A DNA stretch of 64,000 bases, taken from the NCBI GenBank assembly GCA_002269645.1, contig NIVC01001843.1, forward strand, positions 1 through 64,000. The letters are read 5' to 3'. Shown piece by piece: positions 5,910 to 57,179 of the stretch. The DNA is from Macrostomum lignano (taxonomy: Eukaryota). The translations under genes and the position numbers were made by a program. Numbering within the stretch: position 1 is the stretch's first letter; each line of letters starts with the position of its first letter. The notes below the pieces were generated by a model. It made no database searches, was not told where the DNA came from, and was given only the letters and a program-made list of their open reading frames with translations.

Positions 5910-11099
<5,190 letters not shown>

Positions 11100-16735: not shown

Positions 16736-16821
16736 GTTATAAACCCAGCCGCAATGCCGCATAGAGCACGAAGAACTATATAGTATGCGATGTTTCAATT
16801 TCCAGAAGCCCGCAATCGGCA

Positions 16822-17193: not shown

Positions 17194-17228
<35 letters not shown>

Positions 17229-30712: not shown

Positions 30713-33700
30713 TTAGTCTTCAAGAAAGAAGAAGTTTCCAGTCTTCTTCTGTTCAGCATCCTTGACGCTGTTCAATTTGTTAATTCGAGGCCGGAAATTG
30801 TTGGGATCTCGGCGGAAGGTGATGCCCAGTAGACGGAGGAACCGATTCATGCCTGCTAGGAGCGTCTCCGGGCTGTTGGCTCGGGTGTCCACGCCTGGGG
30901 AGCCATCGAATACCACCACCTGCGGCGTGGGGAGCATTGGCAATTGTGAGCGATTTTTGTGTTTTTTTAGGGCGATTCTGGGATTTCTAAGGGCGATTAA
31001 AAGAATTATGGGATTTCTAAGGGCGATTTCAAGAATTATGGGATTTCTAAGGGCGATTTCAAGAATTATGGGATTTCTAAGAAAGGTTCTGAGAATTATG
31101 GGATTTCTAAGAAAGATACTGAGGATTATGGGATTTCTAAGGGCGATTCTGAGGATTATGGGATTTCTAAGGGCGATTCTGAGAATTATGGGATTTCTAA
31201 GGGCGATTTCAAGAATTATGGGATTTCTAAGAAAGGTTCTGAGAATTATGGGATTTCTAAGAAAGATACTGAGGATTATGGGATTTTTAAGGGATAATCT
31301 GTGGATTACAGGATATTTAAGGGTAATTCTGAAATTATGGGATTCTAAGGGCGATTCTGAGGATAATGGGATTTCTAAGGGCGATTCTGAGGATTATGGG
31401 ATTTCTAAGGACAATTCTGAGGATTATGGGTATTCTAAGGGCGATTCTGAGGATTATGGGATTTCTAAGGGCGATTCTGAGGATTACGGGATTTCTAAGG
31501 GCGATCCTGAGGATCTGAGGATTCTGAAGATTATGTGATTCTTAAGGGCGATTCTTAGGATTATGGGATTTCTGAGGGCGATTTTGAGGATTATGGGATT
31601 TCTAAGAAAGATCCTGAGGATTATGGGATTTTTAAGAAAGATTCTGAGGATTATGGGATTTTTAAGGGAGATTCAGAGGGTTATGGGATTTTTAAGGGCC
31701 ATTCTGAGGATTATGGGATCTCTAAGGGCGATTCTGAAGAAATTAGCGAACAGAGGAAAGTAGAACACACCTGATCGGCCAGATAGGTAGCCATAATAAA
31801 ATCGTGTTCAACAACAAACGCGGCCTTTTTAGCGTGCAATATGTAGCGTTTAATAACTCTGGCCGCGTGCAAACGCTGCTCGGAGTCCAGATAGGCGGAG
31901 GGCTCGTCAATCAGGTACACGTCGGCCGGGGTGCCCAGGCAGATGGCCAGGGCCACTCGCTGGAGCTCGCCACCAGACAGGTTCTGCACCTCCTGGTCGT
32001 ACAATCGCTCCAGCTGAAGTTAAAGGGGATTAATTTACTTTATTTATTTTGAGCTTTAAAATCTGTTTGAAATATTTCGAAAGAAGCAAGTTGGATGAAA
32101 ATGGCAGTTGAGTTCACACATTAGGATTTCACAATTCAGGAAAATCGGATAACAGTTCAAGACTAAGGGTTCACACTTTAGGGCTAAGGGTTCACAGTTC
32201 AGGGCTAAGGGTTCACAGTGCAGGACTAAGGGTTCACAGTTCAGGACTAATGGTTCACAATCCAGGACTAGGGGTTCACAGTTCAGGACTAATGGGTTCA
32301 CAATTCAGGGCGAAGGGTTCACAATCCAGGACTAGGGGTCACATTTCAGGGCTAAGGGTTCACAACCCAGGGCTAAGGGTTCACAGTTCAGGGCTAAGGG
32401 TTCACAGTGCAGGACTAAGGGTTCACAGTTCAGGACTAATGGTTCACAATCCAGGACTAGGGGTTCACAGTTCAGGACTAATGGGTTCACAATTCAGGGC
32501 GAAGGGTTCACAATCCAGGACTAGGGGTTCACATTTCAGGACTAATGGGTTCACAATCCAGGACTAGGGGTTCACATTTCAGGGCTAAGGGTTCACAATC
32601 CAGGACTAAGGGTTCACAGTTCAGGACTAATGGTTCACAATCCAGGACTAGGGGTTCACAGTTCAGGACTAATGGGTTCACAATCCAGGACTAAGGGTTC
32701 ACAGTTCAGGACTAATGGTTCACAATCCAGGACTAGGGGTTCACATTTCAGGGCTAAGGGTTCACAATCCAGGACTAGGGGTTCACAGTTCAGGACTAAT
32801 GGGTTCACAATCCAGGACTAAGGGTTCACAGTTCAGGACTAATGGTTCACAATCCAGGACTAGGGGTTCACAGTTCAGGACTATGGGTTCACATTTCAGG
32901 GCGAAGGGTTCACAATCCAGGACTAGGGGTTCACATTTCAGGGCTAAGGGTTCACAATCCAGGACTAGGGGTTCACATTTCAGGACTAATGGGTTCAGAA
33001 TCCAGGACTAGGGGTTCACATTTCAGGGCTAAGGGTTCACAATCCAGGACTAGGGGTTCACATTTCAGGGCTAAGGCTTCACAGTTCAGGACTAATGGGT
33101 TCACAGTTGAGACCAAAGGCACTAAGCTTCATTATGAGGCAGTCACAGGCTAAAAAAAGCGGAACCCACCTCCAGCGGTTTAATAACATCAGTCTGGAAC
33201 TGCGGATGAGTGACGGCGTCGCGGATTTTTTGCAGAAACAAATTCTGTACTGTCTTGTCCGACTTCGGGCTGATCTTCTGCGGCTTGTAGCTGACCCGCA
33301 ATGCCGGCATTTCGCAGCCACCGTCGGGTTCCAGCCGGCCTCCAAGCAGTCGAATAAACGTAGTCTTACCAGTGCCGTTCTCGCCTAGCATGACAACAAT
33401 TTGCGAGTCGGCAAATGTGCCGGATTCGACTTTGAGGCTAAACGAATCTCCAAGGCGTTTGGTCATTTCCGGGTAGCTGTAGCGGGTCTGACGCTTGGTC
33501 TCCTCCTCCATGGCTGTCTCCGCTACCTGAGGGTTTTAAAAGTGTTATAATTTATGATAAAAGGTCAATTAAGGTCATTACAATGAAAGGATCGAAGGAC
33601 ATTTAAGGACATTTAAATAAAGTCAATATTTTTGCTGTGTCAAGCGTTTTGCATTTACAACAACTCTATTCAGTCTAATTGAGTCACTGGCAACATTTTC

Positions 33701-35500
33701 AACTGGGATTTGAATTCACCTTAAACACCAGAGCGGTGTCGCGGAAACGCAGATTCTCTGTAGGAATGAAGCCGTCAAGAAAGATGTTAATGCCTTCGCG
33801 TACGCCGGACGGCAGAGTCACAACACCGTAGGCTCCTGGGACGCCGTATAGACAGCAGATGAAATCGCTGAGATAGTCCAACACGCTGAGATCGTGCTCA
33901 ACTGCTACAACATAGTTACTATCGGTTAGTAGAGCTCGAATCGCTCTGGCGGCGTTAAGTCGCTGTTTAACGTCCAGATAACTGCTGGGCTCGTCGAACA
34001 TGTACACGTCGGCCTTCTGGATGCACACCATGGCGCAGGCGAAGCGTTGCAATTCGCCGCCGCTCAACATTTCAACTTCGCGGTCGCGCACGTGCAGCAA
34101 GTCGAATTGTTCGCAAACTGATTCTTGAACGCCGCGATCGTCTTTCTTGTCCATCAGGCCTTGCACTGTGCCTTTCACAGCTTTTGGTATCTGATCGACG
34201 TATTGCGGTTTCACTACAGCTTTAAGATTGTCTTCCAGTATTTTGGTGAAGAAGTTTTGCAACTCTGAGCCGCGAAAATACTGAAGAATCTCCATCCATT
34301 CGGGCGGTTGGCTGTACCTGTGAGTTGGATTTGGGGTTTTGGGTAGCTAAAAAAGTTAGACCTAAAAAAGTTGTAGGTCAAGATTTTAGGTCAGGATTAG
34401 GAGTAGATTTGTTTCGGAGCTAGACTCAGTTTAAGGTCAGGATTAGGAGTAGCTTTGTGTCGGAGCTAGACTCAGTTTAAGGTCAGGATTAGGAGTAGCT
34501 TTGTGTCGGAGCTAGACTCAGTTTAAGGTCAGGATTAGGAGTAGCTTTGTGTCGGAGCTAGACTCAGTTTAAGGTCAGGATTAGGAGTAGCTTTGTGTCG
34601 GAGCTAGACTCAGTTTAAGGTCAGGATTAGGAGTAGCTTTGTGTCGGAGCTAGACTCAGTTTAAGATCAGGATTAGGAGTAGCTTTGTGGTGGAGCTAGA
34701 CTCAGTTTTAGGTCAGGTTTAGAAGTAGCTTTGTGATGGAGCTAGACTCGGTTTTAGGTCAGGTTTAGAAGTAGCTTTGTGATGGAGCTAGACTCAGTTT
34801 TAGGTCAGGTTTAGAAGTAGCTTTTTGATGGAGCTAGACTCAGTTTTAGGTCAGGTTTAGAAGTACCTTGTGGTGGAGCTAGACTCAGTTTTAGGTCAGG
34901 ATTAGAAGTACCTTGTGATGGAGCTAGACTCAGTTTTAGGTCAGGTTTGGGCGTAGGTTTGTGGTGAAGCTAGACTCAGTTTTAGGTCAGTTTTGGGCGT
35001 AGGTTTGTGCCGGAGCTAGACTGTTTTAGGTCAGGATTAGGAGTAGCTTTGTGACGGAGCTAGACTCAGTTTTAGGTCAGGTTTAGATGGTAGTTGTCCT
35101 ACCTGCCCAAGTTGGGCTTGAGCTTGCCAGCCAGGATCTTCAGCGCCGTACTCTTGCCGATACCATTAGTGCCGACCAGTCCAAGCACTTCGCCTGGCCT
35201 GGGCGTTGGCAGTCGGTGCAGCTTGAAAGAGTTCGGACCATACCGATGAGTAGTGTCCTTCTCCAAGTTGCTAGGCAAATTAATAATATTAATAGCCTCG
35301 AATGGGCACTTCTTCACGCAGATACCGCAGCCGATGCACAGCTCCTCGGAGATGAACGCCGTCTTATCAGCTGGCGTCACTTCGATGCACAGTTTGCCAA
35401 CTCGAACCACTGGACAGGAGCGTTTGCACTCTTGCCGGCATTTCTTCGGCTTGCACCTGTCGGAGCTCACTATGGCTATGCGAGTCAGCTTGTCCGACAT
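30713..35500 (-). CDS. ABCE1: ATP-binding cassette sub-family E member 1 (Rli1/RNase L inhibitor; ribosome recycling factor), 5 exons
   Basis: Exons 35500-35103, 34317-33720, 33526-33170, 32013-31771, 30919-30713 join in frame with GT-AG sites. N-terminal Fe-S cysteines (CKPKKC..C, CIGCGIC..KCP); Walker [10 protein letters not shown] and GENGTGKTT; LSGGELQ signatures; DEPS Walker B; C-terminal [14 protein letters not shown]...NFFFLED. Confidence 0.97.
30960..31740. repeat. 30-bp minisatellite (GGATTTCTAAGGGCGATTCTGAGGATTATG)n, ABCE1 intron 4
   Basis: Direct tandem units. Confidence 0.95.
32150..33110. repeat. 21-22-bp minisatellite (AGGGTTCACA(G/A)TTCAGGACTA)n, ABCE1 intron 3
   Basis: Direct tandem units. 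Confidence 0.95.
34385..35085. repeat. ~46-bp minisatellite (GGAGCTAGACTCAGTTTAAGGTCAGGATTAGGAGTAGCTTTGTGTC)n, ABCE1 intron 1
   Basis: Direct tandem units. Confidence 0.95.
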
Positions 35501-36983
35501 CTTCTGTTAGCTTCCTACTAGAAGAAAATTAACACAGTATCGCCTTTTTTATACTACCAGTTTGCTTTGTGTGCACTTTATTAGATATCTAATAGTGCTT
35601 TGACATGAATTGAGCAAATAGAAAGCTGTGTAAACATATGGTTTATATGAAATATTGTGTACTTTAATTAAGGGGAAATAGCCTAGTGGTCTAATGCAGT
35701 GATCCTTGCAAGCGACTCTGTAACTCTGCTTGTGCAATTAATGCAATTAAGTAACAACTTGGTGGCACCAGAGAGATTAAATCAAAGGCTAAAACTCCTT
35801 TAACATAATTAATATTTTTTCAGTTATAACCAATCTTTTCCAACTTTTATTTCAGGTATGATTATATCAAAAATAGCAAATTTTATATATAGCCCCCTAT
35901 GCATTTTAGGCCTAAAACTAACTTTTTAAGGCTTTAAGGTTTTGGCTATTCTGGCTATATTAAATTTATTCTTATCAATAGTAACAGATAAGGGATAAAA
36001 AAGCTAAAAAATGATAGTAGCATATATTAACTAGATAATTATTTAATTATTCCAATATATAATTGGAATAGAAATTAGTTATATAAAAAAGTTATAAAAA
36101 TATTATTAGCAAAAAAGTTTAAGGCGAAAAAAGTTATATTGCCTAATACTAATATGCAAAATTCACTTTAAAAGCCCATTAAAAAAGTCAAAAAACACTT
36201 CAGTATATCAAAAAATTAGGTTTCACAATTATTGTACATTTTACTCACTTTTCAAATCACTTCAAATCATCATTGCAATTGTAATCTAAACATAGCATAG
36301 AAAATGATGGAAGCATAGCTTATATTCACTTTTGTTATACAATTATTTAAATGATGAATTATATATGTGATTTTATTATTAAGATTAACCCAAAGGAGTA
36401 ATTTGTACATTTTGAATTACAATCACACTAATAGTAAAATTGTATTAGAGGGATCATATCACAAAATTGAATAGATTAATATGGACCCAAATTCATAGTT
36501 TGATTGTGTTTATTCTATAGACACAAAGTCCAATCTATATCAAATAGTATATCTTCATCAATAATCAATGCATGGTTGAGAATAAAATTTTTTATTATGA
36601 TAATTGTTTTTGCACCCTCCCTCACTTTCATCTTATGATCCCCACTCAATATAAATCATATATCCATTTTACAAGGGATTGTAAGATGAAAGTGAGGGGG
36701 CTAGAAGCAGGTGCATTATAAATGTCCAATTCTTGTTTCCGCAGAATATCTAAGACATAGCTAAGACAAAACAGCAGGATGTCTATCAGTTGATTAATAT
36801 ATCAATAATTTCTTAAAATTTTGAAATATCATCTCTCTAATACAATTTTATTATTGGTGTGATTATAATTTGAAACCAACAAGCTCTTTTGGTTTTATCT
36901 TACAATTACCTACATATAAATTTACCATTTAAATGATTATAGGACAAAAGTGAATATAAGCTACCTTCACAACAAAACACAAG

Positions 36984-39720: not shown

Positions 39721-42029
39721 TAAGATTGCTGGTAAATTTTTTCTAATATCCAATGTGCACTAGAACAATCATTACCTTTTCCATTTCCATACCAATCATT
39801 GCCATTAATAAAAGTGAAAATTTTCATTCATGGTGCCCAATACTGATATGATGTGATCTAGCTTATAATAAGAATAGGCCCACTAGCTACTTTTAACATA
39901 GGCCCTGTGCTTTATCAAATAATGATATTTATCCATATACCATAGTCCGGATCATGATCATGCGGGTGCACGCCCGAACAAAAATTGAATAATTACAAAT
40001 GCACGCCGTGAAAAAATAGTGCACGCCCATTCTCAAAAAATGACCTTTTTTACGTTGTGACAATAAAATACCTTTTTAAATTGCGTAATAGACCCTTATT
40101 ATTAGATAATTTTGTTGCTTTTAAAGCTTTTTCGGCGATACTATTTACAACGGAAATTTTAAACACGCAAAGATTTGTTTAAATACTCGATTACGAGCTA
40201 AAAAAAACTGGAAAGCGGGTCTCCCTAAAACACGCCCCGCACCGCCCTGCAGCGCTACACATTAAATCAAAATGGACTATAACTGAAAACACTTCAAAAT
40301 GCATTTTTTGTTAAGCTTCAAAGTTTTTATTAAATTAAGTTTTTTTACTATGAAATATAAAATTCGGTGAATAATAAGTGATATTTTTGATAATATTATT
40401 AAAAGATTAATAATATAATTTAATAATAAAAAACAAGAATATAAAAAATAATAACAATATTTATCATAATAATCAAAGATATTTATTCTATTACTCGTAC
40501 AACAAATATTTTTCTTTGCAATCAAATACTGCATTGACAAAAAATGTTATAATGTGTAGCGGTTCGGGGCGGTGCGGTGCGTGTTTTAGGACGTATGAAA
40601 CATTCGCCGACACTTATTCAGACACTTCTACAGACACTTTAGTTTCTGTCGTACGGTTAGGAACAAGCATTAAATTTGTCTAGGACACTTCCTAATTCAT
40701 ATTTAATTAAATAAAGCAGTCCATGCATAGTTTTAATTTTGCAATTTTGTTTTTGTGCACTCGTTCCAGACTTTCAAATTATGGCTTTTATCGCGTAGCG
40801 TGCACATGCATCGTGTACAACGATTAGCTGCAGCGTGCTAAATAGTTCAATGAGGTATTAAAAGCGTACAAGGAGACGAACCTCAAGTATTTGTACATTT
40901 TAGTTGAAGTTAAAAGTTCAAGCTTTTAGTGAATCATTGGAAAATAAAACTATCCGTTTTAAATCGTGCAACATATTGTTTTGTCTCGGCCATTTGTCAC
41001 ACTGTCACTTTTGGTTGCAAGGTTTTTTAAAAGAGAAACTGTTGCTTTTCCAATGCTGAAGTATTTGTGTTGTATGGATCAGGGTTTTTCGTCAAAATTT
41101 GGATGCATGTATACATCTAAACATGTATATGCAGATGGAAATATAATAATCAAGATGCCATATGTATATTTGCCAACATTTTCAGATTTTGTATAAAGAT
41201 GATCAAGGTTGAAGATTACCCTATGGTATAACTCCATTTTACTATTTCAAAGTGCCCACGTGAAGTTAGATTTAGCATGCCAGCCTTAAAAAAATAAAAA
41301 AATCTACATAGTGTAGAATTGTATACTCTTTTATTTAAGGCTATATTATATTCCCAATATATTTGCTTAGATAAATCGAAAGTATTTACTTTAATTGAAA
41401 AAAATAATGTTCACTACAAATATTTTAATATAGAAACCAGGAAACATAAACCTATCAAGTGTTATATAGAAATGACGGATAAAGATATGGATAGAATATA
41501 ATAAAGCCATTGTAGGCATTAAATATAAAACAAAAGAATCACTTAAGGCAAAATTTGAAAAAAGTGAATTTTTGGCATTCTCCAAGAAAAAAGGCTTATA
41601 ATTTGAAATATTTTTGCTTTTGTTTGACAAAAATATGTATAGGTTTATACTTTTGGGCAAGGTTTATTTTCTCTTAAAATTCTAATTGTAAATTTGCCAG
41701 TAAGCCTAAAAATTGTTGTAAGTTGAAGCTCAAATAAAATTAGTCTTAACTCCAATCTGACTTTCCAAAGTAAATCCCTAAATTATTTGTTACAATTGCT
41801 TTTAAAAACTTGCCATTTCATTCATTCATTAATCAAAATTTTGTTCTAGAAACTGATACCTATAGAAGGTTTATAGTTTTTAAGAAATCTGGTAACTAGT
41901 GTCAGAGAAATATGTTTATGTAGGTTTTATATATATCAACCTTATATATAAAAATGGTTGCACACTGAGATTTAAATACTGCTTCTAACATGTGTGTCCA
42001 GAGGTGAGATTGTGGCCAAATGCACACCA

Positions 42030-42925
42030 ATAGCATACCAACTCCATACCAATATGCCAATTGCATACCAACTCCATACCAACTGCATACCAACTCCATA
42101 CCAACATGCCAACTGCATACCAACTACATACCAACTGCATACCAACTATATACCAACATGCCAACTGCATACCAACTCCATACCAACTATATTCCAACAT
42201 GCCAACTATATACCAACACCATACCAACTGTATGCCAACTGCATACCAACTACATACCAACATGCCAACTGCATACCAACACCATACCAACTCCATACCA
42301 ACTGCATACCAACTCCATACCAACATGCCAACTGCATACCAACACCATACCAACTGCATACCAACTCCATACCAACATGCCAACTGCATACCAACTACAT
42401 ACCAACTGCATACCAATTATATACCAACATGCCAACTGCATACCAACTGCATACCAACTATATTCCAACATGCCAACTGTATACCAACACCATACCAACT
42501 ACATACCAACTGCATACCAACTATATACCAACATGCCAACTGCATACCAACTGCATACCAACTGCATACCAACTATATTCCAACATGCCAACTGTATACC
42601 AACACCATACCAACTGTATGCCAACTGCATACCAACTATATTCCAACATGCCAACTGTATACCAACACCATACCAACTGCATACCAACTGCATACCAACT
42701 ATATTCCAACATGCCAACTGTATACCAACACCATACCAACTCCATACCAACTGCATACCAACTCCATACCAACATGCCAACTGCATACCAACTGCATACC
42801 AACTGCATACCAACATGCCAACTGCATACCAACATGCCAACTGCATACCAACTCCATACCAACTGCATGCCAACTGCATACCAACTATACCAACTGTATA
42901 CCAACACCATACCAACTCCATACCA
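42030..42925. repeat. (ATACCAAC(T/A).C)-based minisatellite in the left foldback arm; mirror copy at ~45690-46420
   Basis: Tandem 11/19-bp units; array length differs between the arms. Confidence 0.95.
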
Positions 42926-43136
42926 AGAATGTTAAATGGCGAAACTCGTAGGAACTTTTAGGTTCTCTTTTTGTACAACTCTTGGGATACTTCTGCCATG
43001 TTGCCATCTTTCGTGACTCTTTTGATGACTAAAATCGCACTCTTCCATATTCCAGGACCAGTTATTACAAGGCCCACCGGATGCTGTTCTGCCTTGTGTA
43101 GGTGCGGTCCTACCATGCCCTTCTCTTTTTGTCATT

Positions 43137-43826
43137 GTGACGTTCAACAACAGCGATGAACTATCGATTCAGTCGGTTTGCCAGAGACTTTGCGTTTGCA
43201 CACGTTCATTTAATCATTCTAATATCCGTGTGCGAGACGGATTTCGTAGGTGCGGACGTGATCGAGTGTCTGTTGTCCAATTAATAACCGATCCTAGCAA
43301 GGTTGCATTTTTGCACGGTGTGTATGGTTGTGGAAACAAAGGCCACCGTGGTAATGGCATTGCTTGGCTGCAGCGTGTAACTAAGCCACATCTGACGCAG
43401 TCAGTTGTCCTACGTCGAGAGATTCTGGGTCACCATTTTCAAAGTTCAAAGCGACTGCGGAAGCAAGTTTTGCAGAGCTTTCGGCTCCTTATTTCTTCAT
43501 GTGATGTGTCTGTTCTTCGTTCTCTGCTCGTTGTCTCGCGCGGCTTCAGTCAGCTACAATCGACTGTGCACCGTCGGCGTTTCATGCAGCGGCGATCACG
43601 CCCAACTGATGAGGAGCAGCGGCAGCACGCGCTGCAAGACGAGCAGCGGCATCTCGAGCTGGATGAACAGCGGCATCTCGAGCTGGATGAACAGCGGCAT
43701 CCGCAGATACGTATTCTGTGGCCGCACTATAGCTACTGTGTCAGTGATTTGACTGTACGAAAAGTATCTTTGTCAGCGGCATTCAATGACGTGAAGCGAA
43801 ACTGCTGCGCTCTTTTTTACGGCTAA
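43137..43826 (+). CDS. Unidentified ORF in the left foldback arm (C-terminus diverges at the arm/spacer junction)
   Basis: 229-codon open frame, identical in sequence to the right-arm ORF until the DEQRH repeats; no family recognised. Confidence 0.35.
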   Translation: MTFNNSDELSIQSVCQRLCVCTRSFNHSNIRVRDGFRRCGRDRVSVVQLITDPSKVAFLHGVYGCGNKGHRGNGIAWLQRVTKPHLTQSVVLRREILGHHFQSSKRLRKQVLQSFRLLISSCDVSVLRSLLVVSRGFSQLQSTVHRRRFMQRRSRPTDEEQRQHALQDEQRHLELDEQRHLELDEQRHPQIRILWPHYSYCVSDLTVRKVSLSAAFNDVKRNCCALFYG

Positions 43827-44653: not shown

Positions 44654-45511
44654 TTACTCATGCCTCGTTCGCGAGCGCAATGACATCGCTGGTTGGACCG
44701 ACCTTGAAGATCTCTGGGGCCTCTGCGATCTCTGACGCATTGGTTTTAGTGGTCCAAGAGCGGGACACTCGTACTGTTGGGACTGCCGCTGTTCATCCAG
44801 CTCGAGCTGCCGCTGCTCCTCTTGCAGTGCGAGTTGCCGTTGGCCGTCCTGTATCTGCGGATGCCGCTGTTCATCCAGCTCGAGCTGCCGCGGCTCCTCC
44901 TGCAGTGCGAGTTGCCGTTGGCCGTCCTGTATCTGCGGATGCCGCTGTTCATCCAGCTCGAGATGCCGCTGCTCGTCTTGCAGCGCGTGCTGCCGCTGCT
45001 CCTCATCAGTTGGGCGTGATCGCCGCTGCATGAAACGCCGACGGTGCACAGTCGATTGTAGCTGACTGAAGCCGCGCGAGACAACGAGCAGAGAACGAAG
45101 AACAGACACATCACATGAAGAAATAAGGAGCCGAAAGCTCTGCAAAACTTGCTTCCGCAGTCGCTTTGAACTTTGAAAATGGTGACCCAGAATCTCTCGA
45201 CGTAGGACAACTGACTGCGTCAGATGTGGCTTAGTTACACGCTGCAGCCAAGCAATGCCATTACCACGGTGGCCTTTGTTTCCACAACCATACACACCGT
45301 GCAAAAATGCAACCTTGCTAGGATCGGTTATTAATTGGACAACAGACACTCGATCACGTCCGCACCTACGAAATCCGTCTCGCACACGGATATTAGAATG
45401 ATTAAATGAACGTGTGCAAACGCAAAGCCTCTGGCAAACCGACTGAATCGATAGTTCATCGCTGTTGTTGAACGTCACAATGACAAAAAGAGAAGGGCAT
45501 GGTAGGACCAC
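44654..45511 (-). CDS. Unidentified ORF in the right foldback arm with Gln/Glu/Arg-rich tandem repeats
   Basis: 285-codon open frame whose antisense frame has many stops; EQRHPQIQDGQRQLALQEE repeats; no family recognised. Confidence 0.4.
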   Translation of the reverse strand: MVLPCPSLFVIVTFNNSDELSIQSVCQRLCVCTRSFNHSNIRVRDGFRRCGRDRVSVVQLITDPSKVAFLHGVYGCGNKGHRGNGIAWLQRVTKPHLTQSVVLRREILGHHFQSSKRLRKQVLQSFRLLISSCDVSVLRSLLVVSRGFSQLQSTVHRRRFMQRRSRPTDEEQRQHALQDEQRHLELDEQRHPQIQDGQRQLALQEEPRQLELDEQRHPQIQDGQRQLALQEEQRQLELDEQRQSQQYECPALGPLKPMRQRSQRPQRSSRSVQPAMSLRSRTRHE

Positions 45512-48500
45512 ACCTACACAAGGCAGAACAGCATCCGGTGGGCCTTGTAATAACTGGTCCTGGAATATGGAAGAGTGCGATTTTAGTCATCAAAAGAGTC
45601 ACGAAAGATGGCAACATGGCAGAAGTATCCCAAGAGTTGTACAAAAAGAGAACCTAAAAGTTCCTACGAGTCTCGCAATTTAACATTCTTGGTATGGTGT
45701 TGGTATGGTGTTGGTATGGTGTTGGTATAGTTGGTATGTAGTTGGTATGCAGTTGGCATGCAGTTGGCATGTTGGTATGGAGTTGGTATGCAGTTGGTAT
45801 GCAGTTCGCATGTTGGTATATAGTTGGTATGCAGTTGGTATAGTTGGTATGTAGTTGGTATGCAGTTGGCATGCAGTTGGAATGGAGTTGGTATGCAGTT
45901 GGCATGTTGGTATGGAGTTGGTATGCAGTTGGTATGCAGTTGACATGTTGGTATGGAGTTGGTATGCAGTTGGTATGGAGTTGGTATGGTGTTGGTATGC
46001 AGTTGGCATGTTGGTATGTAGTTGGTATGCAGTTGGCATACAGTTGGTATGTAGTTGGTATGCAGTTGGCATGTTGGTATGGAGTTGGTATGCAGTTGGT
46101 ATGGTGTTGGTATGCAGTTGGCATGTTGGTATGGAGTTGGTATGCAGTTGGTATGGAGTTGGTATGGTGTTGGTATGCAGTTGGCATGTTGGTATGTAGT
46201 TGGTATGCAGTTGGCATACAGTTGGTATGGTGTTGGTATATAGTTGGCATGTTGGAATATAGTTGGTATGGAGTTGGTATGCAGTTGGCATGTTGGTATA
46301 TAGTTGGTATGCAGTTGGTATGTAGTTGGTATGCAGTTGGCATGTTGGTATGGAGTTGGTATGCAGTTGGTATGGAGTTGGTATGCAATTGGCATATTGG
46401 TATGGAGTTGGTATGCTATTGGTGTGCATTTGGCCACAATCTCACCTCTGGACACACATGTTAGAAGCAGTATTTAAATCTCAGTGTGCAACCATTTTTA
46501 TATATAAGGTTGATATATATAAAACCTACATAAACATATTTCTCTGACACTAGTTACCAGATTTCTTAAAAACTATAAACCTTCTATAGGTATCAGTTTC
46601 TAGAACAAAATTTTGATTAATGAATGAATGAAATGGCAAGTTTTTAAAAGCAATTGTAACAAATAATTTAGGGATTTACTTTGGAAAGTCAGATTGGAGT
46701 TAAGACTAATTTTATTTGAGCTTCAACTTACAACAATTTTTAGGCTTACTGGCAAATTTACAATTAGAATTTTAAGAGAAAATAAACCTTGCCCAAAAGT
46801 ATAAACCTATACATATTTTTGTCAAACAAAAGCAAAAATATTTCAAATTATAAGCCTTTTTTCTTGGAGAATGCCAAAAATTCACTTTTTTCAAATTTTG
46901 CCTTAAGTGATTCTTTTGTTTTATATTTAATGCCTACAATGGCTTTATTATATTCTATCCATATCTTTATCCGTCATTTCTATATAACACTTGATAGGTT
47001 TATGTTTCCTGGTTTCTATATTAAAATATTTGTAGTGAACATTATTTTTTTCAATTAAAGTAAATACTTTCGATTTATCTAAGCAAATATATTGGGAATA
47101 TAATATAGCCTTAAATAAAAGAGTATACAATTCTACACTATGTAGATTTTTTTATTTTTTTAAGGCTGGCATGCTAAATCTAACTTCACGTGGGCACTTT
47201 GAAATAGTAAAATGGAGTTATACCATAGGGTAATCTTCAACCTTGATCATCTTTATACAAAATCTGAAAATGTTGGCAAATATACATATGGCATCTTGAT
47301 TATTATATTTCCATCTGCATATACATGTTTAGATGTATACATGCATCCAAATTTTGACGAAAAACCCTGATCCATACAACACAAATACTTCAGCATTGGA
47401 AAAGCAACAGTTTCTCTTTTAAAAAACCTTGCAACCAAAAGTGACAGTGTGACAAATGGCCGAGACAAAACAATATGTTGCACGATTTAAAACGGATAGT
47501 TTTATTTTCCAATGATTCACTAAAAGCTTGAACTTTTAACTTCAACTAAAATGTACAAATACTTGAGGTTCGTCTCCTTGTACGCTTTTAATACCTCATT
47601 GAACTATTTAGCACGCTGCAGCTAATCGTTGTACACGATGCATGTGCACGCTACGCGATAAAAGCCATAATTTGAAAGTCTGGAACGAGTGCACAAAAAC
47701 AAAATTGCAAAATTAAAACTATGCATGGACTGCTTTATTTAATTAAATATGAATTAGGAAGTGTCCTAGACAAATTTAATGCTTGTTCCTAACCGTACGA
47801 CAGAAACTAAAGTGTCTGTAGAAGTGTCTGAATAAGTGTCGGCGAATGTTTCATACGTGTTTTAGGGAGACCCCTGGAAAGCTTGAAATTTGCGCCTAAG
47901 AATGAACTTTTTTCATCTTTTTTCTACTTTACAATAACTCTTACGCGTGATTCTATAAAGTGCACGCCAGGTGTGCACACATACTTTTTTCTCAGGAGTG
48001 ATGCACGCCAACTGTGCACGCCTAATTTTGGCGTGCAAGGCCAATGCACGCCCGAATTTTCGGGCGTATACTACATGATCCGGAGTGTGGTGACGATATA
48101 ATGCCATGGTAGTAATGACCGGCTGAATTGCATGGCAGCTAAATTACAAAAATAGAAAGTATAAATAATATCACAGAATATATTAAAAAACAATTATAAA
48201 AAATTAAACAAGTAATAGCCCATTGATACAATGACAATATAGTTAGGAAACTTTGGTTTGGCAAGAAAATTTCATAATTTTATTAAGGCCTATTTATCAA
48301 ATAAAATCAAAGAATAAGACCAAAACTAAATATGCTAATTGCTAAATTAAGACTAGCACTTGCAGTAGTAGGCCCCATTTTTACATGTATTATATTTTAG
48401 TTACTATACAAATAAGCAAAGCATTTGGGCTTATTGACACATCACACAATGTGGATAATATTTGTGGTTATTGGCATAAGACTATAGGCTATAGCCTAAG

Positions 48501-49012: not shown

Positions 49013-50312
49013 CATACATTCCAATTGATATTGGCGAATAAAACAGGAATTCTCATTTGCTTGTTGCCAAAATGGCTTTTACCAAAATGGCTGTTCTTGA
49101 ATTGGTCATCATTTGTTACCAAAGTAGACTATTGAGAGCATACTCCCTGCTCTGCTTGCAAGAAAGATTGCATTATAAGTGTCGTAGGGCTTACTTCTGC
49201 CTCTACTAATATTCTCCCACTATTGCCACCAAAGTTGACATAGGGCTCCGTCTTTCTATACAATTTCAACCGCTGACACCAAAGTTGTACCAGGGGTGTT
49301 CCTTCTTGTCAATATTGCTGGGTATTACCCGCTTTTTACTCGTAGCGCATGTACTTCTATTGGTAGCGTCTGTACTTCTATTGGTAGCGTATGTACTTTT
49401 ACTGGTAGCGTCTGTACTTCTATTGTACTTTCGGGCCTGAGCGGTCCTTTTAGGCACTGTCTATCTTATTCCTATATTCCTCTAAAGATATTATTCTCAG
49501 TCCTGGGCGTTCCCGGGATCAGAGGGTCACAGCGCACTTCGCTGGGTATTCTGCCCTGAGGCGGGTTTCTCAGACTCTAAGCCTGGATTTCTCTACCCTG
49601 TGGTAGGATCTCTGCCTTTTAAAGGCGGGTTACTAGACTCCTAAGTCTAGATTTCTCGTTCTCTGAGAACGGACTGAACTCCCAATTTTGGGGCAACTCC
49701 TAACTACTATCTACTACTAAAAATGAGTAATACTGGAACAACTCTTAAACTCAGTTTGAATTTGTCTGGTTAAGCTTGTAATATTCAAGCGCGAGCTCAA
49801 AGCAGAGCAAAGAGTTTATTATTCTTGGCCTCTAGTGGGCTTCCTTTTATAGCAAAAATTTTAGAGTGTTTTAAAACAAACTATAATATTCGTAATATGC
49901 AAAATATACAATATATAAAAAATATTCAACATATTCGTACAGTAAAACAATAGTTATGTTTTCAAAATAAAATTTTCCTAGAAACTAATAAAATGCGGCC
50001 TATTACAACTGCCTTCCCTAATTGCATGTTTTTGAATAAAAAAATTGTTTACTATAAAAAAATTTTGCGTGATAAAAATGCGATATAAATTGTGAAGCAT
50101 AAAAGACAACAATGCATAACATATGAAAGGTATCAAAGTAGACTATGTTGAAAAAGAATAGACAATGCAACAACAAAAATATTAAGGCAATAGTAAAGTA
50201 AAATATAACTAGCACATAGTGAGATTATATCGAAAGGCGTTTAGTACTAAAGAAAAACTACTACAAAGGAAGATTATAGACAGCAAGTTAATTCAGATAG
50301 ATCATTAACTGT

Positions 50313-51266
50313 TCAGAATTCACATGGTCCGGGTAGTTCTCGATAAGCTGGCCAGTCGAATTGGCTTAGGATCCACCGTAGCTCGATGCTCAATAGCTGC
50401 CTGTGGATCTCTTGACCGGCACCAGCATTGGCGAAGTGACGATGCAGCCTCTCGGCGATGTGCTGCACAACGGCAATGGCCTCGCCGTTGCGGGCGTGAC
50501 GCCGCAGCAAGCACAAGAAAGGCCATACCTGCGCCCTCTGAGGTAGCGGTTGGTCCAGGCGAATGAAAGCAATGCGCAGCAAGTATTGCTGGATCCCATG
50601 TCTGGCTCGCTCGATTGGTTCGCCTCGAACGACAAGCAGGTGCTGGGCCATCTCGTTGTAACCTGGGCGCTGCTGTTGTGGCTGCCGCTCCTGCCTGGCC
50701 GCACGTCCTTCTGGCTGCTGTCTCACTGGACGTTCCACCGGCGGCTGTTGTCTGGCCGGGCGCCGGCGCGGATCAACTGGCGGTCCAGCCAGTTGGATGG
50801 CTCGTCGTTCGTCCTGGGCGCCTTGGGCGGCGCCTCCAGCAGGGGCTACGTAGACTCGGACTGGCGCTACCGCCTGAGCCTGGAGAAGCGCGGCTCTCTT
50901 CGCAGGGGCCTGTTCGTCATTCCGAAGCTGACGATTCACAACTGGTGAACGATCACGTTGCCTCTTACATCCGGGCGGCTGTGGGCGTGTCGGCTGTCGT
51001 AGCGGCGCCTCTTCTGGCTGTTGCGGCTCCGGTGGTGGTTGCTGCTGCTGCCGCTGCTGCCGTGGTTGCCGCTGCTGTTGTTCCTGCGGTGGTCGCTGCT
51101 GTTGTTCTGGCTCAGCCGGTGGCTGGGGTTGCTCAGCCGGTGGCTGGTGTTGCGGCTCAGGCTGAGGTGCAACACCCTCAGGCTGACCGTTGTTCTGCCT
51201 TTCTGGCTGTTCCAGATCGGCGGCGTCTATATCAAGAAATTCCCTAAGAAAGTCAAAATCGTCCAT
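50313..51266 (-). CDS. Intact orphan 317-aa ORF inside the LTR element (acidic tip, Q/P/R-rich linker, ~115-aa predicted helical C-domain)
   Basis: Uninterrupted ATG-to-TGA GC-rich frame within AT-rich surroundings, in the sense orientation just upstream of the PPT. Confidence 0.7.
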   Translation of the reverse strand: MDDFDFLREFLDIDAADLEQPERQNNGQPEGVAPQPEPQHQPPAEQPQPPAEPEQQQRPPQEQQQRQPRQQRQQQQPPPEPQQPEEAPLRQPTRPQPPGCKRQRDRSPVVNRQLRNDEQAPAKRAALLQAQAVAPVRVYVAPAGGAAQGAQDERRAIQLAGPPVDPRRRPARQQPPVERPVRQQPEGRAARQERQPQQQRPGYNEMAQHLLVVRGEPIERARHGIQQYLLRIAFIRLDQPLPQRAQVWPFLCLLRRHARNGEAIAVVQHIAERLHRHFANAGAGQEIHRQLLSIELRWILSQFDWPAYRELPGPCEF

Positions 51267-53289
51267 GCTTGCTTATAATTAGCTTATGTTTAGCGGGCCT
51301 TGAAATAGGTGCTATACTCGCTTCTTGGGGAGCCTCACGGGTCTTGGTTTTGTATCTGAAAAACTGGACCGCATCTTCGTGTTCGCTCTCGGGGAGGGGT
51401 CTGAGCTTCACTTTTGACACTTTGGCTCCGTGGAGAACTTCGAATCGATTTTCACATGCATGTAATTTTCTTAATATAATAGATACAATGATGAGCAATA
51501 TACCATTTTATAGATAATTATTTACAGATTTATATGATGTTTTTGTATTTTTTTGTAGCTTTTATAGTTTTTATTTTATTGAGCTTTTTGTAGAGTCTAT
51601 TTACAAATGGAAACATTTTTACACTGATTCTAATGGGGTTTTGGTTCGCTGATTACGTCATCTTTACTTTCGATAGTGAGAATAGCGCCTCCGGGGAACA
51701 AAGCCTGTGGTGACTAAGCTCTCTCTCCGGGGTCTCAGATTATAGTGATGCCTTTGTTCGGCCTTCTCGTTCTCACTTCTATCTTGATTTGGCTCTGATG
51801 TGTCACCTATTTCGGCTGGCTCGGTTCTCTCACTGTCTAATGATTCATGCTCAAACTCTCCTTCATTCTGCTCGATTCCTTCCTCATTTGGCTCGTTCTG
51901 TTCAACTTCTCGTGCTCTCCATTGAATTCTTTCGTCCTCCGAACTATCAGTTTCTATTATTGGCTCTAAATGATTTTTCTTACTAATCTGTTGCCTTCCC
52001 TTATTTTTCGGCTCTCTCTTTTTCTGTTGTTCTCTCTGCCTTCCCCTATTTGTAGGTTCCGTCTCTTTATTTGGTAAGTTGGTTTAATAAATTTTTTGAA
52101 CATCTACCTTCCGAAATTACACTGCTCTTAGGATCAGGCTGAAATTTGGCTGCCAATGGGCTACCTTGCTTTCACCATAAGGCAGAGTATTCTTTCAGTA
52201 ATTCCATCTATCAAATTTCTCTTTCAGCTTTCAGGATCCTTGAGAGAGGACTTTAAATGATTAAATCATGCCTTTCTAAGCGGGATCAAGAAATTTCACT
52301 CTTGGCTTTCTCAATTTTATTGGATGATCTCTCTTTCTAAAAGAGGACTTTTAAATTATCTCTGACAATTTCGTGCTTCGACTTTCTCTTATTTCTACTC
52401 AGTAGTGGCACACAACGTTTTCTAGCTGCTAATTTCTCGATGCGGAATCTCCTCGTTTACGTCTTTTCAACAATTTCTCACAACGATTTTCAACATGCTC
52501 TACTTAGTTCGGTCACTCAGTAGTGCCTTTGACATTTTCGAGCTTCTATCTACACAGTCTTCTCAAATTCTGCTCTATTTTTGCTCTTCACAGACTATCG
52601 CATCCTTTTAGAAAGCAATGAAGTCTTTATCTAAAGAGGGACACACGAAGATAGCTGATCAGAATTTTCTCAATTTTCTCATCAAATTCTCAACTCTTCT
52701 CCAATTTCTCTTCTTCAAATTCTCTTCTTGAATTCTTCTCTTGAATTCACTTCTACAACTTCAACAGCTTCTATCGCTCCTTTTTAAGTGTCTATCAGCG
52801 TTTCGAGGGTGCGGCTAGGCTTTCCCTAGTCTACCTCTGCTTCTAGTACACTTGCTTCGATTTCACTTCTCGTCTCAATTCTCTTCAAAACTTCTCAACT
52901 TCGCAACTCTTATCTCGCTTCTATTCCTGTTTGTCAGAGTTATTCTCAATTATTTCTTTCCGCAGAGCCTTTTATTAATACTCTGGAAGGACTTTGGCTA
53001 ATTAGTTATGCTTCCTATCTTCTGAGCAGCTTCACTATAACAAATTAGGCCTATATCTGATTTTTAGTAAAACGGCCCTTCTAAGGGTTAATTTGCAAAA
53101 CGGCCCTTTTGAGGGTTCCAATAAACAATTAAGTGCATTTTATACGTTATATGGTGCTAATTCAAACGTTTTTATTTTCTTTTTCGAAGCTTTTATAAAT
53201 TTTTATATTTTTATGGATACTATGTACACTTTTCTGAGCTTAACTGAATCGTGCTTACATACTCAACTCTCATCCTTTCTCTTGGGCTC

Positions 53290-53855
53290 GCTGTCTGGCT
53301 TTTCTGAAGTCTATCCTACACTTGTGGCCTGTCTGTGGTCTTATTGAACCTGGCTGCCCACAGAAGAAGCAATGGCCGGGTTTTGGCTCAGGTCTGGCGC
53401 CACTAAATCGGTGCCTGAACTGCATGGGGACGCGGCTTTGGCATTGACTGCTGCTGCTGTTCTGGGTTTGAGTTCACGTTGATACTAGTGAAGATAGTTA
53501 TCAAGGTGACCAAGCACTCTACTAGGGCTTCAGTTCCTCCTTTCTGGTTCTGCTGTTTTGGCTCAAACTCCTCAATGATCTGCCTCCTAATCTCCTGATA
53601 ATGCTGCTGATCTTTCCTATGGCTCATCCTCCACTTTAGTCCTTCTGGGATATCCAGATTGGCGAAGAGGGCTTCCTTCCGCTCTTCTCCGTTAAATCCT
53701 TGCATCCTGCATTGCTGCTCGAATGCGTTGAGCCACTGCCTGATGTTCTTGTCAGGCGTGTACTTTTCTACTTCTACCTGCTTTAGTGATCCTAGTTCTA
53801 ACCTGTTTCTTAGTTCTTCAGCTAGCATCGCAATCGCATCATTTGCGTTGGCCAT
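53290..53855 (-). pseudogene. Gag-like ORF with frameshifted, degenerate zinc knuckle
   Basis: 150-aa ORF after the PBS (..KYTPDKNIRQWLNAFEQQC..; gypsy gag-like 'WL..FE'); in another frame downstream CFFCGQPG...C, resembling a CCHC knuckle. Confidence 0.65.
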
Positions 53856-55333
53856 CTCTGATCTTGTCAGGTTCTGCTATTTCTCTAGTCTTCTAACCGT
53901 TTCTCTAATTCTGGCCGTTTCTCTGATCTAAATCGCGCCGTTTCTCTGATCTAAATCGCGCCGTTTCTCTGATCCTTTACGCTGCCACCAAAAGTTGTCG
54001 TAGGGCTTACTTCTGCCTCTACTAATATTCTCCCACTATTGCCACCAAAGTTGACGTAGGGCTCCGTCTTTCTATACAATTTCAACCGCTGACACCAAAG
54101 TTGTACCAGGGGTGTTCCTTCTTGTCAATATTGCTGGGTATTACCCGCTTTTTACTCGTAGCGCATGTACTTCTATTGGTAGCGTCTGTACTTCTATTGG
54201 TAGCGTATGTACTTTTACTGGTAGCGTCTGTACTTCTATTGTACTTTCGGGCCTGAGCGGTCCTTTTAGGCACTGTCTATCTTATTCCTATATTCCTCTA
54301 AAGATATTATTCTCAGTCCTGGGCGTTCCCGGGATCAGAGGGTCACAGCGCACTTCGCTGGGTATTCTGCCCTGAGGCGGGTTTCTCAGACTCTAAGCCT
54401 GGATTTCTCTACCCTGTGGTAGGATCTCTGCCTTTTAAAGGCGGGTTACTAGACTCCTAAGTCTAGATTTCTCGTTCTCTGAGAACGGACTGAACTCCCA
54501 ATTTTGGGGCAACTCCTAACTACTATCTACTACTAAAAATGAGTAATACTGGAACAACTCTTAAACTCAGTTTGAATTTGTCTGGTTAAGCTTGTAATAT
54601 TCAAGCGCGAGCTCAAAGCAGAGCAAAGAGTTTATTATTCTTGGCCTCTAGTGGGCTTCCTTTTATAGCAAAAATTTTAGAGTGTTTTAAAACAAACTAT
54701 AATATTCGTAATATGCAAAATATACAATATATAAAAAATATTCAACATATTCGTACAGTAAAACAATAGTTATGTTTTCAAAATAAAATTTTCCTAGAAA
54801 CTAATAAAATGCGGCCTATTACATAAGGATTCGATATCTTCATAATTAGAAGTAGATGTATTTTTAAACTTTATTTAAAGTTTTATTTCTTAGCTATTAT
54901 AAAAATGTGCTTTAATTTATTCTAAGACCTATGTTATTTTGTTTAATTTGGTTTAAATTCTAAGATATTTGATGAATTCATAATATTTAAATAATAAAGT
55001 CTTATGAGTACATTACAGATTAGCCTGTAAGGTTTTTAGTTGATTTGTCTGCTGCCAATTCGTATGCTCAGCATATTTAATTTAAATTAAATATCAAAGT
55101 CAAAATGGTATCTATTCTTAAAAGACCAAGGCTAAGGAAGCCCAGATTTTTAATAAGATTAAGATTGAAAAATGTTAGATATATTCTTAGATATGCTAAT
55201 AGTAATAGGCTATATTAAATATAAATGTTGATATAAATTTAAAAAGCCCTAAGCCTAGTTAGTGTAATTGTGCTATATTGATATAATTTAATAATATATA
55301 AGTTTGCAAAGTTTCAATTTTGACTATTCAAAC

Positions 55334-55870: not shown

Positions 55871-57179
55871 CAGGGTGAGCATAAAGTAACTCCCTATTTT
55901 GATTAATAAAACAATGTACATTATATTTATTTATTCTCAAAAAAATTATCATAAAAGGTAGGCATATATGGAAAGTTATCTCTAAAATTCAATATGTGCC
56001 CCAGATCTTTCCACCAGCTGCTGCAAACGTTCAGGAATAGTATCCACTGACTTTCTTAGAAACTCCATTGGGATGGTGGACATGACACATGACTCCCCTT
56101 ATTCGATCCTCCAGTTCTTCGAGTGTCGGTTTGGAGCAGTAGACTTCTTCTTTTACCCAACCCCAAAGAAAAAAGTCGCAGGGTGTCAAATCCAGGCTCC
56201 TGGATGGCCATTCATGTGGGCCACAATGTCCCAACCAACGCCCTGGAAAGCGAGCATCCAGCCATTCACGGACAACAAGAGCAAAGTGTAGTGGGGCGCC
56301 ATCTTGCATAAATATTAACTTGTCAATGTTCTGACAACTGGCCAGACTCTATCACGCAACATATCAAGGTATCATTCACCCCCCCTGGTGTTGCACAGAA
56401 GAAATGGGCCCACAACCTGATCTGAGATGATACCATACCACACCATTACTTTGGGTTGATTTAGCTGTTTTTCAACTGTCATCATAGGACCCTCTCCTGC
56501 CCAGTAGTGGCAGTTGTGACAGTTGACAAAGCCTCCAATGTGAAACACAGCCTCATCAGTCCAGAGGATGTTGCAGAAAAGATGGGGCCCCTCTTCATAC
56601 CAAGCTAGCATGATTTCTCCAAACTCCATGCGAATGTCACAGTCTTCATCCGAGAGAGATTGGCAGTAGTGCAGCTTCCACGCACGCCAGTTCAACTCTT
56701 TCTTGAGCACAGTTTGCACTGTGTAGTGGGTGAGTCCACTTTCCCAAGCTGCCTGGTGAGTTGATTTTCCTGGATTATGCTGAAACATTGCTTGGACTAT
56801 GTGCACTGTTTCCTAGGTCGTGGATGTCTAAGGGTGTCCACTTCTGCGAACATCTACCACAGATCCTGTGGTCATGAGCTTCACGTAAAAGTTTCTTATT
56901 GTTTTTGGATCCACTTGTGCACGTGGTCCATGAATAGTCCGCCACCATTGTTGAACTTGTACGACAGATTGCCAAACTTCATATTGTGACGCCAACTGGG
57001 CACGCTCCTGAAGTGTTAACTGCTGAGCCATGTTACAGTTTTATCTGAAATCAAGTACAAAACTATCAATAAAATTGTACTATTTGAGAGAATTAATCAT
57101 AAAAACATGACAAAGCAGTAACAAATTATATACAATTTATTAGTAATTTAAAATAGGGAGTTACTTTCTGCCCACCCTG
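55871..57179 (-). mobile_element. Decayed Tc1/mariner element of the rosa (DD41D) group
   Basis: TIR CAGGGTG(A/G)GCA(T/G)AAAGTAACTCCCTATTTT with TA TSD. Transposase has an HTH region, WTDEAVFH, QDGAP and PCDFFLWG, with 41 residues between the 2nd and 3rd Asp (counted by hand). Stops and a frameshift are present. Confidence 0.92.

What the first reader, a model, noticed from the sequence alone, without database searches (positions are those of the whole stretch)
49180..54823. Very young pol-less LTR element carrying an intact orphan gene
Near-identical LTRs, TSD, PBS and PPT are all intact, so the element moved recently. Yet gag is frameshifted and pol is replaced by ~1.8 kb of A/G-skewed non-coding sequence. 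The only intact ORF is a 317-aa protein at the env/accessory position. It has no evident signal peptide or TM helix, so it is not a typical Env. Its acidic N-terminus, Q/P-rich linker and basic KRQR/KR motifs suggest a nuclear regulator, for example an anti-silencing factor or a captured host domain spread by a parasite of an autonomous gypsy element.
Basis: partly seen in the sequence, partly recalled or inferred. Interest (0 to 1): 0.75.

Follow-up and report, generated by a model that had tools for sequence, protein, structure and literature searches.

The report
Pol-less flatworm retroelement with accessory gene
A freshly inserted, enzyme-less retrotransposon of a Macrostomum-type flatworm carries an intact extra gene from a small, undescribed protein family that may act as the element's own nuclear regulator, though its function is untested.

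Summary
The structure is confirmed: 828-bp LTRs with 1 mismatch, 4-bp TSD, PBS, PPT, broken gag, no detectable pol domain, intact 317-aa ORF. Three corrections.
(1) The ORF is not a singleton. It has 5 relatives among 1.84 billion representatives (E to 3e-23), 4 of them Macrostomum lignano proteins. Three full-length members share an acidic N-terminal motif, an invariant EAPLRxPTRP motif and basic clusters; the ~110-aa helical domain folds confidently (pLDDT 82).
(2) The 'non-coding' 1.8 kb ends in a 139-codon Met-less open frame with gag-like codon bias, two PPT-core copies at the element's midpoint and a YNLRPR motif. This is probably the 3' end of pol.
(3) About 118 nt upstream of the ATG lies a block conserved with a relative only 39% identical, a candidate internal promoter or 5' UTR.
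Best reading: a non-autonomous Ty3/gypsy-like derivative that kept its parent's ORF3 transcription unit, encoding a nuclear regulator (inferred, about 0.45). The untranslatable pol tail is open too, so the ORF's intactness does not prove selection. Known architecture (rotifer TelKA2n), new cargo family.

The parts
49176..49179 (.). Target-site duplication TAAG (left)
49180..50007 (-). 3' LTR, 828 bp, TG...CA
   Evidence: 1 mismatch to the 5' LTR at 49240/54056
50009..50020 (-). 3' polypurine tract TAGGGAAGGCAG
50021..50312 (-). U-rich 3' UTR of the ORF (T 0.46 on the sense strand)
50313..51266 (-). Intact 317-aa ORF3: acidic N-terminal motif (about aa 1-12), variable Q/P linker, conserved block aa 86-135 (EAPLRxPTRP, KRQR, KR), helical domain aa ~203-317
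51337..51387 (-). Conserved block about 118 nt upstream of the ATG, shared with the 5' extension of M. lignano P0002 (123 nt upstream of its equivalent Met); candidate internal promoter or 5' UTR element (function inferred)
51424..51663 (-). AT-rich spacer with AATAAA (51580, 51575) and TATA-like words (51566, 51534, 51512)
51664..52083 (-). 139-codon Met-less open frame with gag-like A-rich fourfold sites and YNLRPR at 51744 near its end; probable 3' tail of pol/integrase (inferred)
51991..52047 (-). Two internal copies of the PPT core GGGAAGGCA (52045, 52000) at the element midpoint (52001.5); central-PPT-like
52084..53269 (-). About 1.2 kb of A/G-rich filler; stop density as expected by chance in all three frames; no pol domain found
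53270..53473 (-). Degenerate Cys/His knuckle region, in a different frame from the gag 5' part
   Evidence: knuckle reading recalled, no Pfam match
53403..53855 (-). gag-like 5' frame, 150 codons from ATG, ending at a stop
   Evidence: label from recalled motifs and position
53978..53990 (-). Primer-binding site TGGTGGCAGCGTA (tRNA-Leu-like; tRNA identity recalled)
53996..54823 (-). 5' LTR, 828 bp; TATA-like word at 54667, AATAAA at 54636, long U5 with a 21-bp tandem repeat and two degenerate extra [LTR end + PBS] units
54824..54827 (.). Target-site duplication TAAG (right)

Best explanation
SHOWN: a recently inserted LTR retroelement with all cis signals (LTRs, TSD, PBS, 3' PPT, internal PPT copies), no detectable pol domain and a broken gag, so it must have been packaged, reverse-transcribed and integrated in trans. 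Its 3' part holds a complete ORF of a Macrostomum-restricted protein family. INFERRED: (1) it derives from an autonomous Ty3/gypsy-type gag-pol-ORF3 element whose pol decayed or was replaced, leaving the pol 3' tail, with its central-PPT-like sites, directly upstream of the ORF3 unit; (2) ORF3 is its own transcription unit, using the conserved block about 118 nt upstream of the ATG; (3) the protein is nuclear and modular (acidic amphipathic N-terminal motif, invariant docking motif, basic NLS-like clusters, compact helical interaction domain) and raises expression of its own family's LTR or internal promoter, as a transactivator or anti-silencer, the way foamy-virus Tas or plant VANC do. Step 3 is the weakest.
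For: Cis anatomy. No pol. Family: 5 hits at E 2.8e-23 to 2.2e-12; 4 of 5 clusters named M. lignano, 1 unnamed Logan cluster. Modular conservation against P0002 / P0006: aa 86-135 62% / 42%, aa 204-317 44% / 43%, linker aa 21-85 15% / 12% on few aligned sites. EAPLRxPTRP followed by basic clusters in 3 of 3 full-length lineages. All three have a Met directly before an acidic F-[LI]-[RK]-x-[LF]-[LM] motif. The 7-sequence model has pLDDT 81.6, pTM 0.77 and five helices. No TM-grade window in 4 of 4 proteins checked. Tail frame: fourfold-site A 0.44 against gag 0.52 (p=0.52) and host exons 0.16 (p=1e-4). PPT-core copies: at least one in 19 of 3000 simulations, two in 0 of 3000. Upstream block: 18 of 27 identical, only 1 further positive, out of frame with the ORF here, which fits DNA-level rather than protein-level conservation. 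Precedents: rotifer ORF3s are separate units and TelKA2n lacks the gag C-terminus and most of pol but keeps ORF3 (PMC5408684, passages); foamy viruses have a central PPT, an internal promoter and the nuclear transactivator Tas (PMC6669568, passages).
Against: No function, localisation or expression was tested. Whether any relative sits inside an LTR element could not be seen; they are annotated simply as hypothetical genes. The Met-less tail is as open as ORF3, so intactness may reflect recent descent rather than selection. Two or three relatives (P0005/P0007, P0003) are annotated as the helical domain alone, without the acidic and basic parts. ORF3 fourfold-site A (0.28) differs from the gag+tail backbone (p=0.0015) as well as from host exons (p=0.0012), which fits a foreign origin. 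The gag and pol-tail labels have no profile support. The two PPT copies may stem from one 45-nt duplication, and their central position was noticed after the fact.
Confidence: 0.45

Rival explanations
1. LTR-mediated retrocopy: the ORF with its 5' UTR was captured by template switching from a Macrostomum-specific host gene and rides as passive cargo (Bs1-like).
For: The ORF is intronless and less A-rich than the backbone (A 0.24 against 0.35-0.41). Relatives are annotated M. lignano genes. The shared upstream block could be a captured UTR. The mechanism is common in animals and yields non-autonomous elements (PMC5131818, passages).
Against: No near-identical parent was found; best identity is 36-49%, though the window may be from another Macrostomum species (0 of 9 window translations in the collection). 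The cargo follows an apparently natural pol end and a spacer rather than interrupting an ORF. One relative occurs in a chimeric gene model between a non-LTR RT/RNase H remnant and an LRR gene, which hints at a mobile context.
Confidence: 0.25
2. ORF3 is a genuine accessory gene of the autonomous parent but acts outside transcription (particle assembly, RNA trafficking or cytoplasmic piRNA evasion), or is simply hitch-hiking in this deletion derivative.
For: The untranslatable pol tail is equally intact. Domain-only relatives lack the nuclear-type motifs. Rotifer ORF3s include enzymes and membrane proteins (PMC5408684, abstract and part 1).
Against: Basic clusters and the acidic motif recur in 3 of 3 full-length lineages. 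The middle 1.2 kb is fully scrambled while ORF3 is not.
Confidence: 0.22
3. The helical domain is a diverged second Gag capsid (SCAN-like) domain or an Env remnant.
For: By eye, an LPxxxQxW stretch recalls SCAN and gypsy capsid C-terminal domains (recalled, no call). Zebrafish BHIKHARI single ORFs are Gag (PMC12067270, passages).
Against: No similarity to the element's own gag (hhalign probability 0.1). No signal-peptide-like N-terminus or TM-grade window. No Pfam match at E up to 5 to such families for 7 of 7 members.
Confidence: 0.08

Closest known systems
TelKA2n, non-autonomous LTR family of bdelloid rotifers (PMC5408684; part 1 of 5 and 3 passages read)
   Same: Lacks the gag C-terminus and most of pol yet keeps an ORF3; ORF3s described as separate transcription units; young LTRs.
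   Different: Its ORF3 is env-like; here ORF3 is soluble, with a domain known only from Macrostomum-type sequences.
LTR-mediated retrocopies and maize Bs1 (PMC5131818; passages)
   Same: LTR-flanked, pol-less unit carrying a non-retroviral ORF, mobilisable in trans.
   Different: Those cargos are fragments of identifiable host genes replacing internal ORFs; here no parent is identified and the ORF is whole, downstream of a probable pol end.
Foamy virus Tas, internal promoter and central PPT (PMC6669568, PMC12125541; passages)
   Same: 3'-located ~300-aa basic/acidic non-Env ORF with a candidate internal promoter; internal PPT copy; the YNLRPR hexamer equals the core of the PFV Gag nucleosome-binding peptide.
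   Different: No sequence link to Tas was found; here YNLRPR is in a probable pol tail, not Gag; invertebrate host; analogy only.
VANC21/VANC6 anti-silencing proteins of VANDAL DNA transposons (PMC6719617; passages)
   Same: TE-encoded accessory protein proposed to act on its own family.
   Different: Plant DNA transposons, with the activity shown by experiment; no homology or activity shown here.
Retand/Tat extra ORFs between pol and the 3' LTR (PMC11963269; abstract only)
   Same: Extra ORF of unknown, possibly regulatory function in the pol-3'LTR interval, also in non-autonomous copies.
   Different: Plant lineage, antisense ORFs, TRP28 domain; here a sense ORF with no Pfam domain.
BHIKHARI (Bik-1/2) of zebrafish (PMC12067270; passages)
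   Same: Young pol-less LTR element with one intact ORF.
   Different: That ORF is Gag; here gag is broken and the intact ORF does not resemble it.

Membership tests
Non-autonomous LTR retrotransposon | Paired LTRs with TG...CA ends and a TSD | tested here: met
   828 bp, 1 mismatch, TAAG TSD
Non-autonomous LTR retrotransposon | PBS and PPT | tested here: met
   tRNA-Leu identity recalled, not tested
Non-autonomous LTR retrotransposon | No RT, RNase H or integrase domain | tested here: met
Non-autonomous LTR retrotransposon | Multiple dispersed copies and a helper sharing the LTR ends | not testable with these tools
   No eukaryotic genome collection; no other copy in the window
Ty3/gypsy (Mag, CsRN1, Gmr1/Osvaldo or Mdg3 clades reported in M. 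lignano) | RT phylogeny and pol domain order | not testable with these tools
   No RT left to place; clades listed in PMC12801592
Ty3/gypsy (Mag, CsRN1, Gmr1/Osvaldo or Mdg3 clades reported in M. lignano) | Gypsy-type Gag profile match | tested here: inconclusive
   No Pfam or PDB match; resemblance by recalled motifs only
Env-type ORF3 | Signal peptide and transmembrane anchor | tested here: not met
   Acidic N-terminus, max KD19 1.1; simple hydropathy only
LTR-mediated retrocopy (Bs1 type) | Identifiable host parent gene with microsimilarity at the junctions | not testable with these tools
   Closest relatives 36-49% identical, no genomic context
Gag-only elements (BHIKHARI/MaLR type) | The intact ORF is Gag, at the gag position | tested here: not met
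   The ORF lies next to the PPT; a separate broken gag-like frame follows the PBS; no similarity between them
SCAN / capsid-derived domain | Profile or fold match to SCAN or capsid | tested here: inconclusive
   Shallow 7-sequence profile
Tas- or VANC-like TE regulators | Sequence or fold homology | tested here: inconclusive
   shallow profile
Tas- or VANC-like TE regulators | Nuclear localisation and activation or de-silencing of the cognate element | not testable with these tools
   Needs an experiment

The most novel reading that the evidence does not exclude
A flatworm Ty3/gypsy lineage has independently evolved a foamy-virus-like 'complex' organisation (central PPT, YNLRPR nucleosome tether at the pol end, internal promoter driving a dedicated nuclear transactivator or anti-silencer with an undescribed helical domain), and pol-less copies such as this one are kept as regulator donors in a two-component system with a gag-pol helper, rather than as pure parasites.
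Probability: 0.12. Interest if true: 0.82.

Novelty: new variant of a known kind. Interest (0 to 1): 0.5.

Why it matters
A TE-encoded anti-silencing protein is best documented for plant VANDAL elements (PMC6719617, passages); I know of few tested trans-regulators in animal Ty3/gypsy elements (own knowledge). This family is a concrete candidate in a genus with transgenesis, RNAi and an LTR reporter assay already in use (PMC12801592). That paper's survey starts from the RT domain, so pol-less elements like this one fall outside it. If the ORF is only cargo or a hitch-hiker, the value drops to a new lineage-restricted domain and an element annotation.

Tried and rejected
Fold searches of the confident model gave no clear match: Foldseek PDB 0 at E<=0.001, BFVD 0, VIA-align best Z 7.5 (rmsd 3.9, 100 aligned) among 48,161 chains with none at Z>=8, second look best Z 7.0. 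Globin-like sensors, B12 cap domains, cullin repeats and KaiA are tied at the background level for helical bundles; this shows neither kinship nor a new fold. The single-sequence model was unusable (pLDDT 45).

Homodimer prediction gave no answer (score 0.00, alignment not used); it is no evidence either way. The weak PDB profile hit to the Nrd1-Nab3 chimera 7prd (E 0.018, 51 positions) was judged chance. ESM Atlas gave nothing usable. NCBIfam gave 3 weak, unrelated hits. Word-index searches: 0 of 67 candidates with the single sequence; with the profile only the already known P0001, P0002 (of 8000 scored) and P0005, P0003 (of 7712).

Rfam 0 hits; ARAGORN 0 tRNAs. No three-unit heat-shock element in the element. 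No significant RNA structure upstream of the ATG (z -1.6) or at U5/PBS (z 0.0). No SL relic was seen by eye before the ATG against the SL printed in PMC8629364.

The four Mlig gene ids were absent from the full-text library and from the supplements of PMC12801592, PMC5730564, PMC5816591 and PMC7806878, so no expression data were found. 'Macrostomum + retrotransposon + non-autonomous' gave 0 papers. 'YNLR + retrotransposon' gave nothing relevant, so the link of that motif to gypsy pol ends is recalled only. PMC2774666 and PMC13534243 passages added nothing used. Exact look-up of 9 window translations found 0, so the species stays open. Unchecked: viral and metagenome contig collections, bioRxiv supplements, and any eukaryotic genome.
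Full report
OBSERVATION. The element is real and lies on the minus strand. Its LTRs (54823-53996 and 50007-49180) are 828 bp with TG...CA ends and differ at 1 of 828 sites. A 4-bp TSD (TAAG) flanks it. A PBS (TGGTGGCAGCGTA; tRNA-Leu-like by recall) starts 5 nt inside the 5' LTR, and a PPT precedes the 3' LTR. No other copy or solo LTR is in the window. A gag-like frame runs 150 codons from ATG 53855 to a stop at 53403, and a degenerate Cys/His knuckle lies in another frame. The gag label comes from position, recalled motifs and codon bias; Pfam and PDB sequence searches do not confirm it. No protease, RT, RNase H or integrase signal was found in 6 of 6 whole frames, 12 of 12 shorter segments, or 3 of 3 sense frames against PDB, all read with X at stops. 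The 317-aa ORF (51266-50313) is intact, and a stop-free run that long arose in 7 of 2000 composition-matched simulations.

HOST AND FAMILY. A search of the C-terminal 125 aa against 1.84 billion representatives gave 5 hits, E 2.8e-23 to 2.2e-12. Four of the five clusters are Macrostomum lignano proteins (Mlig016073/008906, Mlig008543, Mlig026206 and a chimeric 1495-aa model); one is an unnamed Logan cluster. Two profile searches added nothing new. The host is therefore inferred to be a Macrostomum-type flatworm; the species is open because 0 of 9 window translations were in the collection. The ORF is thus a member of a small lineage-restricted family, not a singleton.

PROTEIN ANATOMY. Conservation is modular. 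Against P0002 and P0006, aa 86-135 are 62% and 42% identical and aa 204-317 are 44% and 43%, while the Q/P linker is 15% and 12% on few aligned sites. All three full-length lineages have a Met followed by an acidic amphipathic motif (net charge -6 to -7 in 25 aa), an invariant EAPLRxPTRP motif and two basic clusters. The C-terminal domain has 10 invariant columns in 7 sequences and folds as a five-helix bundle with pLDDT 81.6 and pTM 0.77. It matches no Pfam family convincingly; fold-search results are under Tried and rejected. No TM-grade window was found in 4 of 4 proteins, so it is not Env-like. P0005/P0007 and P0003 are annotated as the domain alone.

First, the 'non-coding' region has two parts. 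About 1.2 kb (53269-52084) has chance-level stop density. It is followed by a 139-codon Met-less open frame (52083-51664; 2 of 2000 and 16 of 3000 simulations). That frame's fourfold sites are A-rich like gag (0.44 against 0.52, p=0.52) and unlike five host exons of the window (0.16, p=1e-4). It contains two copies of the PPT core GGGAAGGCA at 52045 and 52000, at the element midpoint 52001.5 (one copy in 19 of 3000 simulations, two in 0 of 3000); the two may come from one duplication. It also contains YNLRPR, identical to the core of the foamy-virus Gag nucleosome-binding peptide GGYNLRPRTYQ (PMC12125541, passages); the looser pattern YxLRxR occurs 3 times in the window's six frames. I read this frame as the 3' tail of pol; that is inference, with no profile support. 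Second, a block at 51387-51337, 118 nt upstream of the ATG, matches the annotated 5' extension of P0002 (123 nt upstream of its equivalent Met) at 18 of 27 residues, with only one further positive and out of frame here. That pattern fits a conserved promoter or UTR element. It includes a YTNCAG word at 51356, the top trans-splice acceptor motif of M. lignano (PMC8629364, passages), but the P0002 residues at that spot do not allow the same word. Third, the U5 part of each LTR holds two degenerate extra copies of [LTR end + PBS].

HOW IT MOST LIKELY WORKS. Shown: intact cis signals with no enzymes, so mobilisation in trans. Inferred: the order pol tail, AT-rich spacer, conserved block, ORF, 3' UTR, PPT is that of a gag-pol-ORF3 parent whose pol was lost, as in rotifer TelKA2n (PMC5408684). 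ORF3 would be expressed as its own unit, enter the nucleus and raise expression of its family, as Tas does from the foamy internal promoter (PMC6669568) or as VANC proteins do by anti-silencing (PMC6719617). I put the whole chain at 0.45; the structural part alone is near 0.9.

RESULTS AGAINST. The untranslatable tail is as open as ORF3, so ORF3 may be intact only because the 3' half came recently from a helper. ORF3 fourfold-site A (0.28) differs from the backbone (p=0.0015) and from host exons (p=0.0012), leaving capture of a host gene open (PMC5131818). No relative could be placed inside an LTR element, no copy number or dN/dS could be computed, and no expression data were found.

COMPARISON AND NOVELTY. 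The architecture is known (TelKA2n, Bs1-type chimeras, Retand extra ORFs, BHIKHARI). It is not an Env element and not a Gag-only element. Membership of a Ty3/gypsy clade cannot be tested without RT; M. lignano has Mag, CsRN1, Gmr1/Osvaldo and Mdg3 families, found by an RT-first method, and the paper text has 0 occurrences of 'non-autonomous' or 'ORF' (PMC12801592: parts 1-2 of 6, passages, supplement 1, term search of 5 supplements). What is new is the cargo family and the foamy-like combination of features. My searches for prior description were made; subscription journals, Repbase and bioRxiv supplements were not visible and may describe it.

VERDICT. New variant of a known kind; interest 0.5. 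The boldest open reading, a complex-retrovirus-like regulator supplied by pol-less partners, has probability about 0.12 and would merit about 0.8.

Noticed in passing
window 54117-54028 and 49301-49212 (-): Each LTR's U5 contains two degenerate extra copies of the LTR end plus PBS (about 50-nt spacing), suggesting that the LTR grew by repeated end duplication; the single LTR mismatch falls in one of them.
   Followed up: partly
window 51744-51727 (-): YNLRPR in the probable pol tail equals the core of the foamy-virus Gag nucleosome acidic-patch peptide; a possible chromatin tether of the parent's integrase.
   Followed up: partly
window 40591-43677 and 44938-47858: Large inverted duplication (arms of 1879 nt at 99% and 904 nt at 96%) containing an 11-bp minisatellite and 265/310-codon open frames without a Pfam match; foldback element or assembly artefact.
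   Followed up: partly
window 53914-53974: Perfect 23-bp tandem repeat (2.7 copies) in the leader just after the PBS, a possible packaging or dimerisation signal.
   Followed up: no
window 33699-35506 (-), 16765-17571 (+), 10581-11099 (+): Host exons: an ABC ATPase with an N-terminal Cys cluster (ABCE1-like by recall), a bHLH gene and a tubulin-tyrosine-ligase-family exon.
   Followed up: partly
window 56031-57040 (-) and 20823-21359 (+): Broken Tc1/mariner-like transposase (recognised by eye, no Pfam match at E 0.01) and an RNase H remnant (E 5e-4).
   Followed up: partly
P0004 residues 743-763 and 844-921: The chimeric M. lignano model holds a weak match to the domain's last helix upstream of a Q-rich linker and then the domain proper, hinting at tandem copies (E 0.15).
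   Followed up: no
window 1500-47000: Very dense array of unrelated micro- and minisatellites (periods 4 to 46 nt).
   Followed up: no
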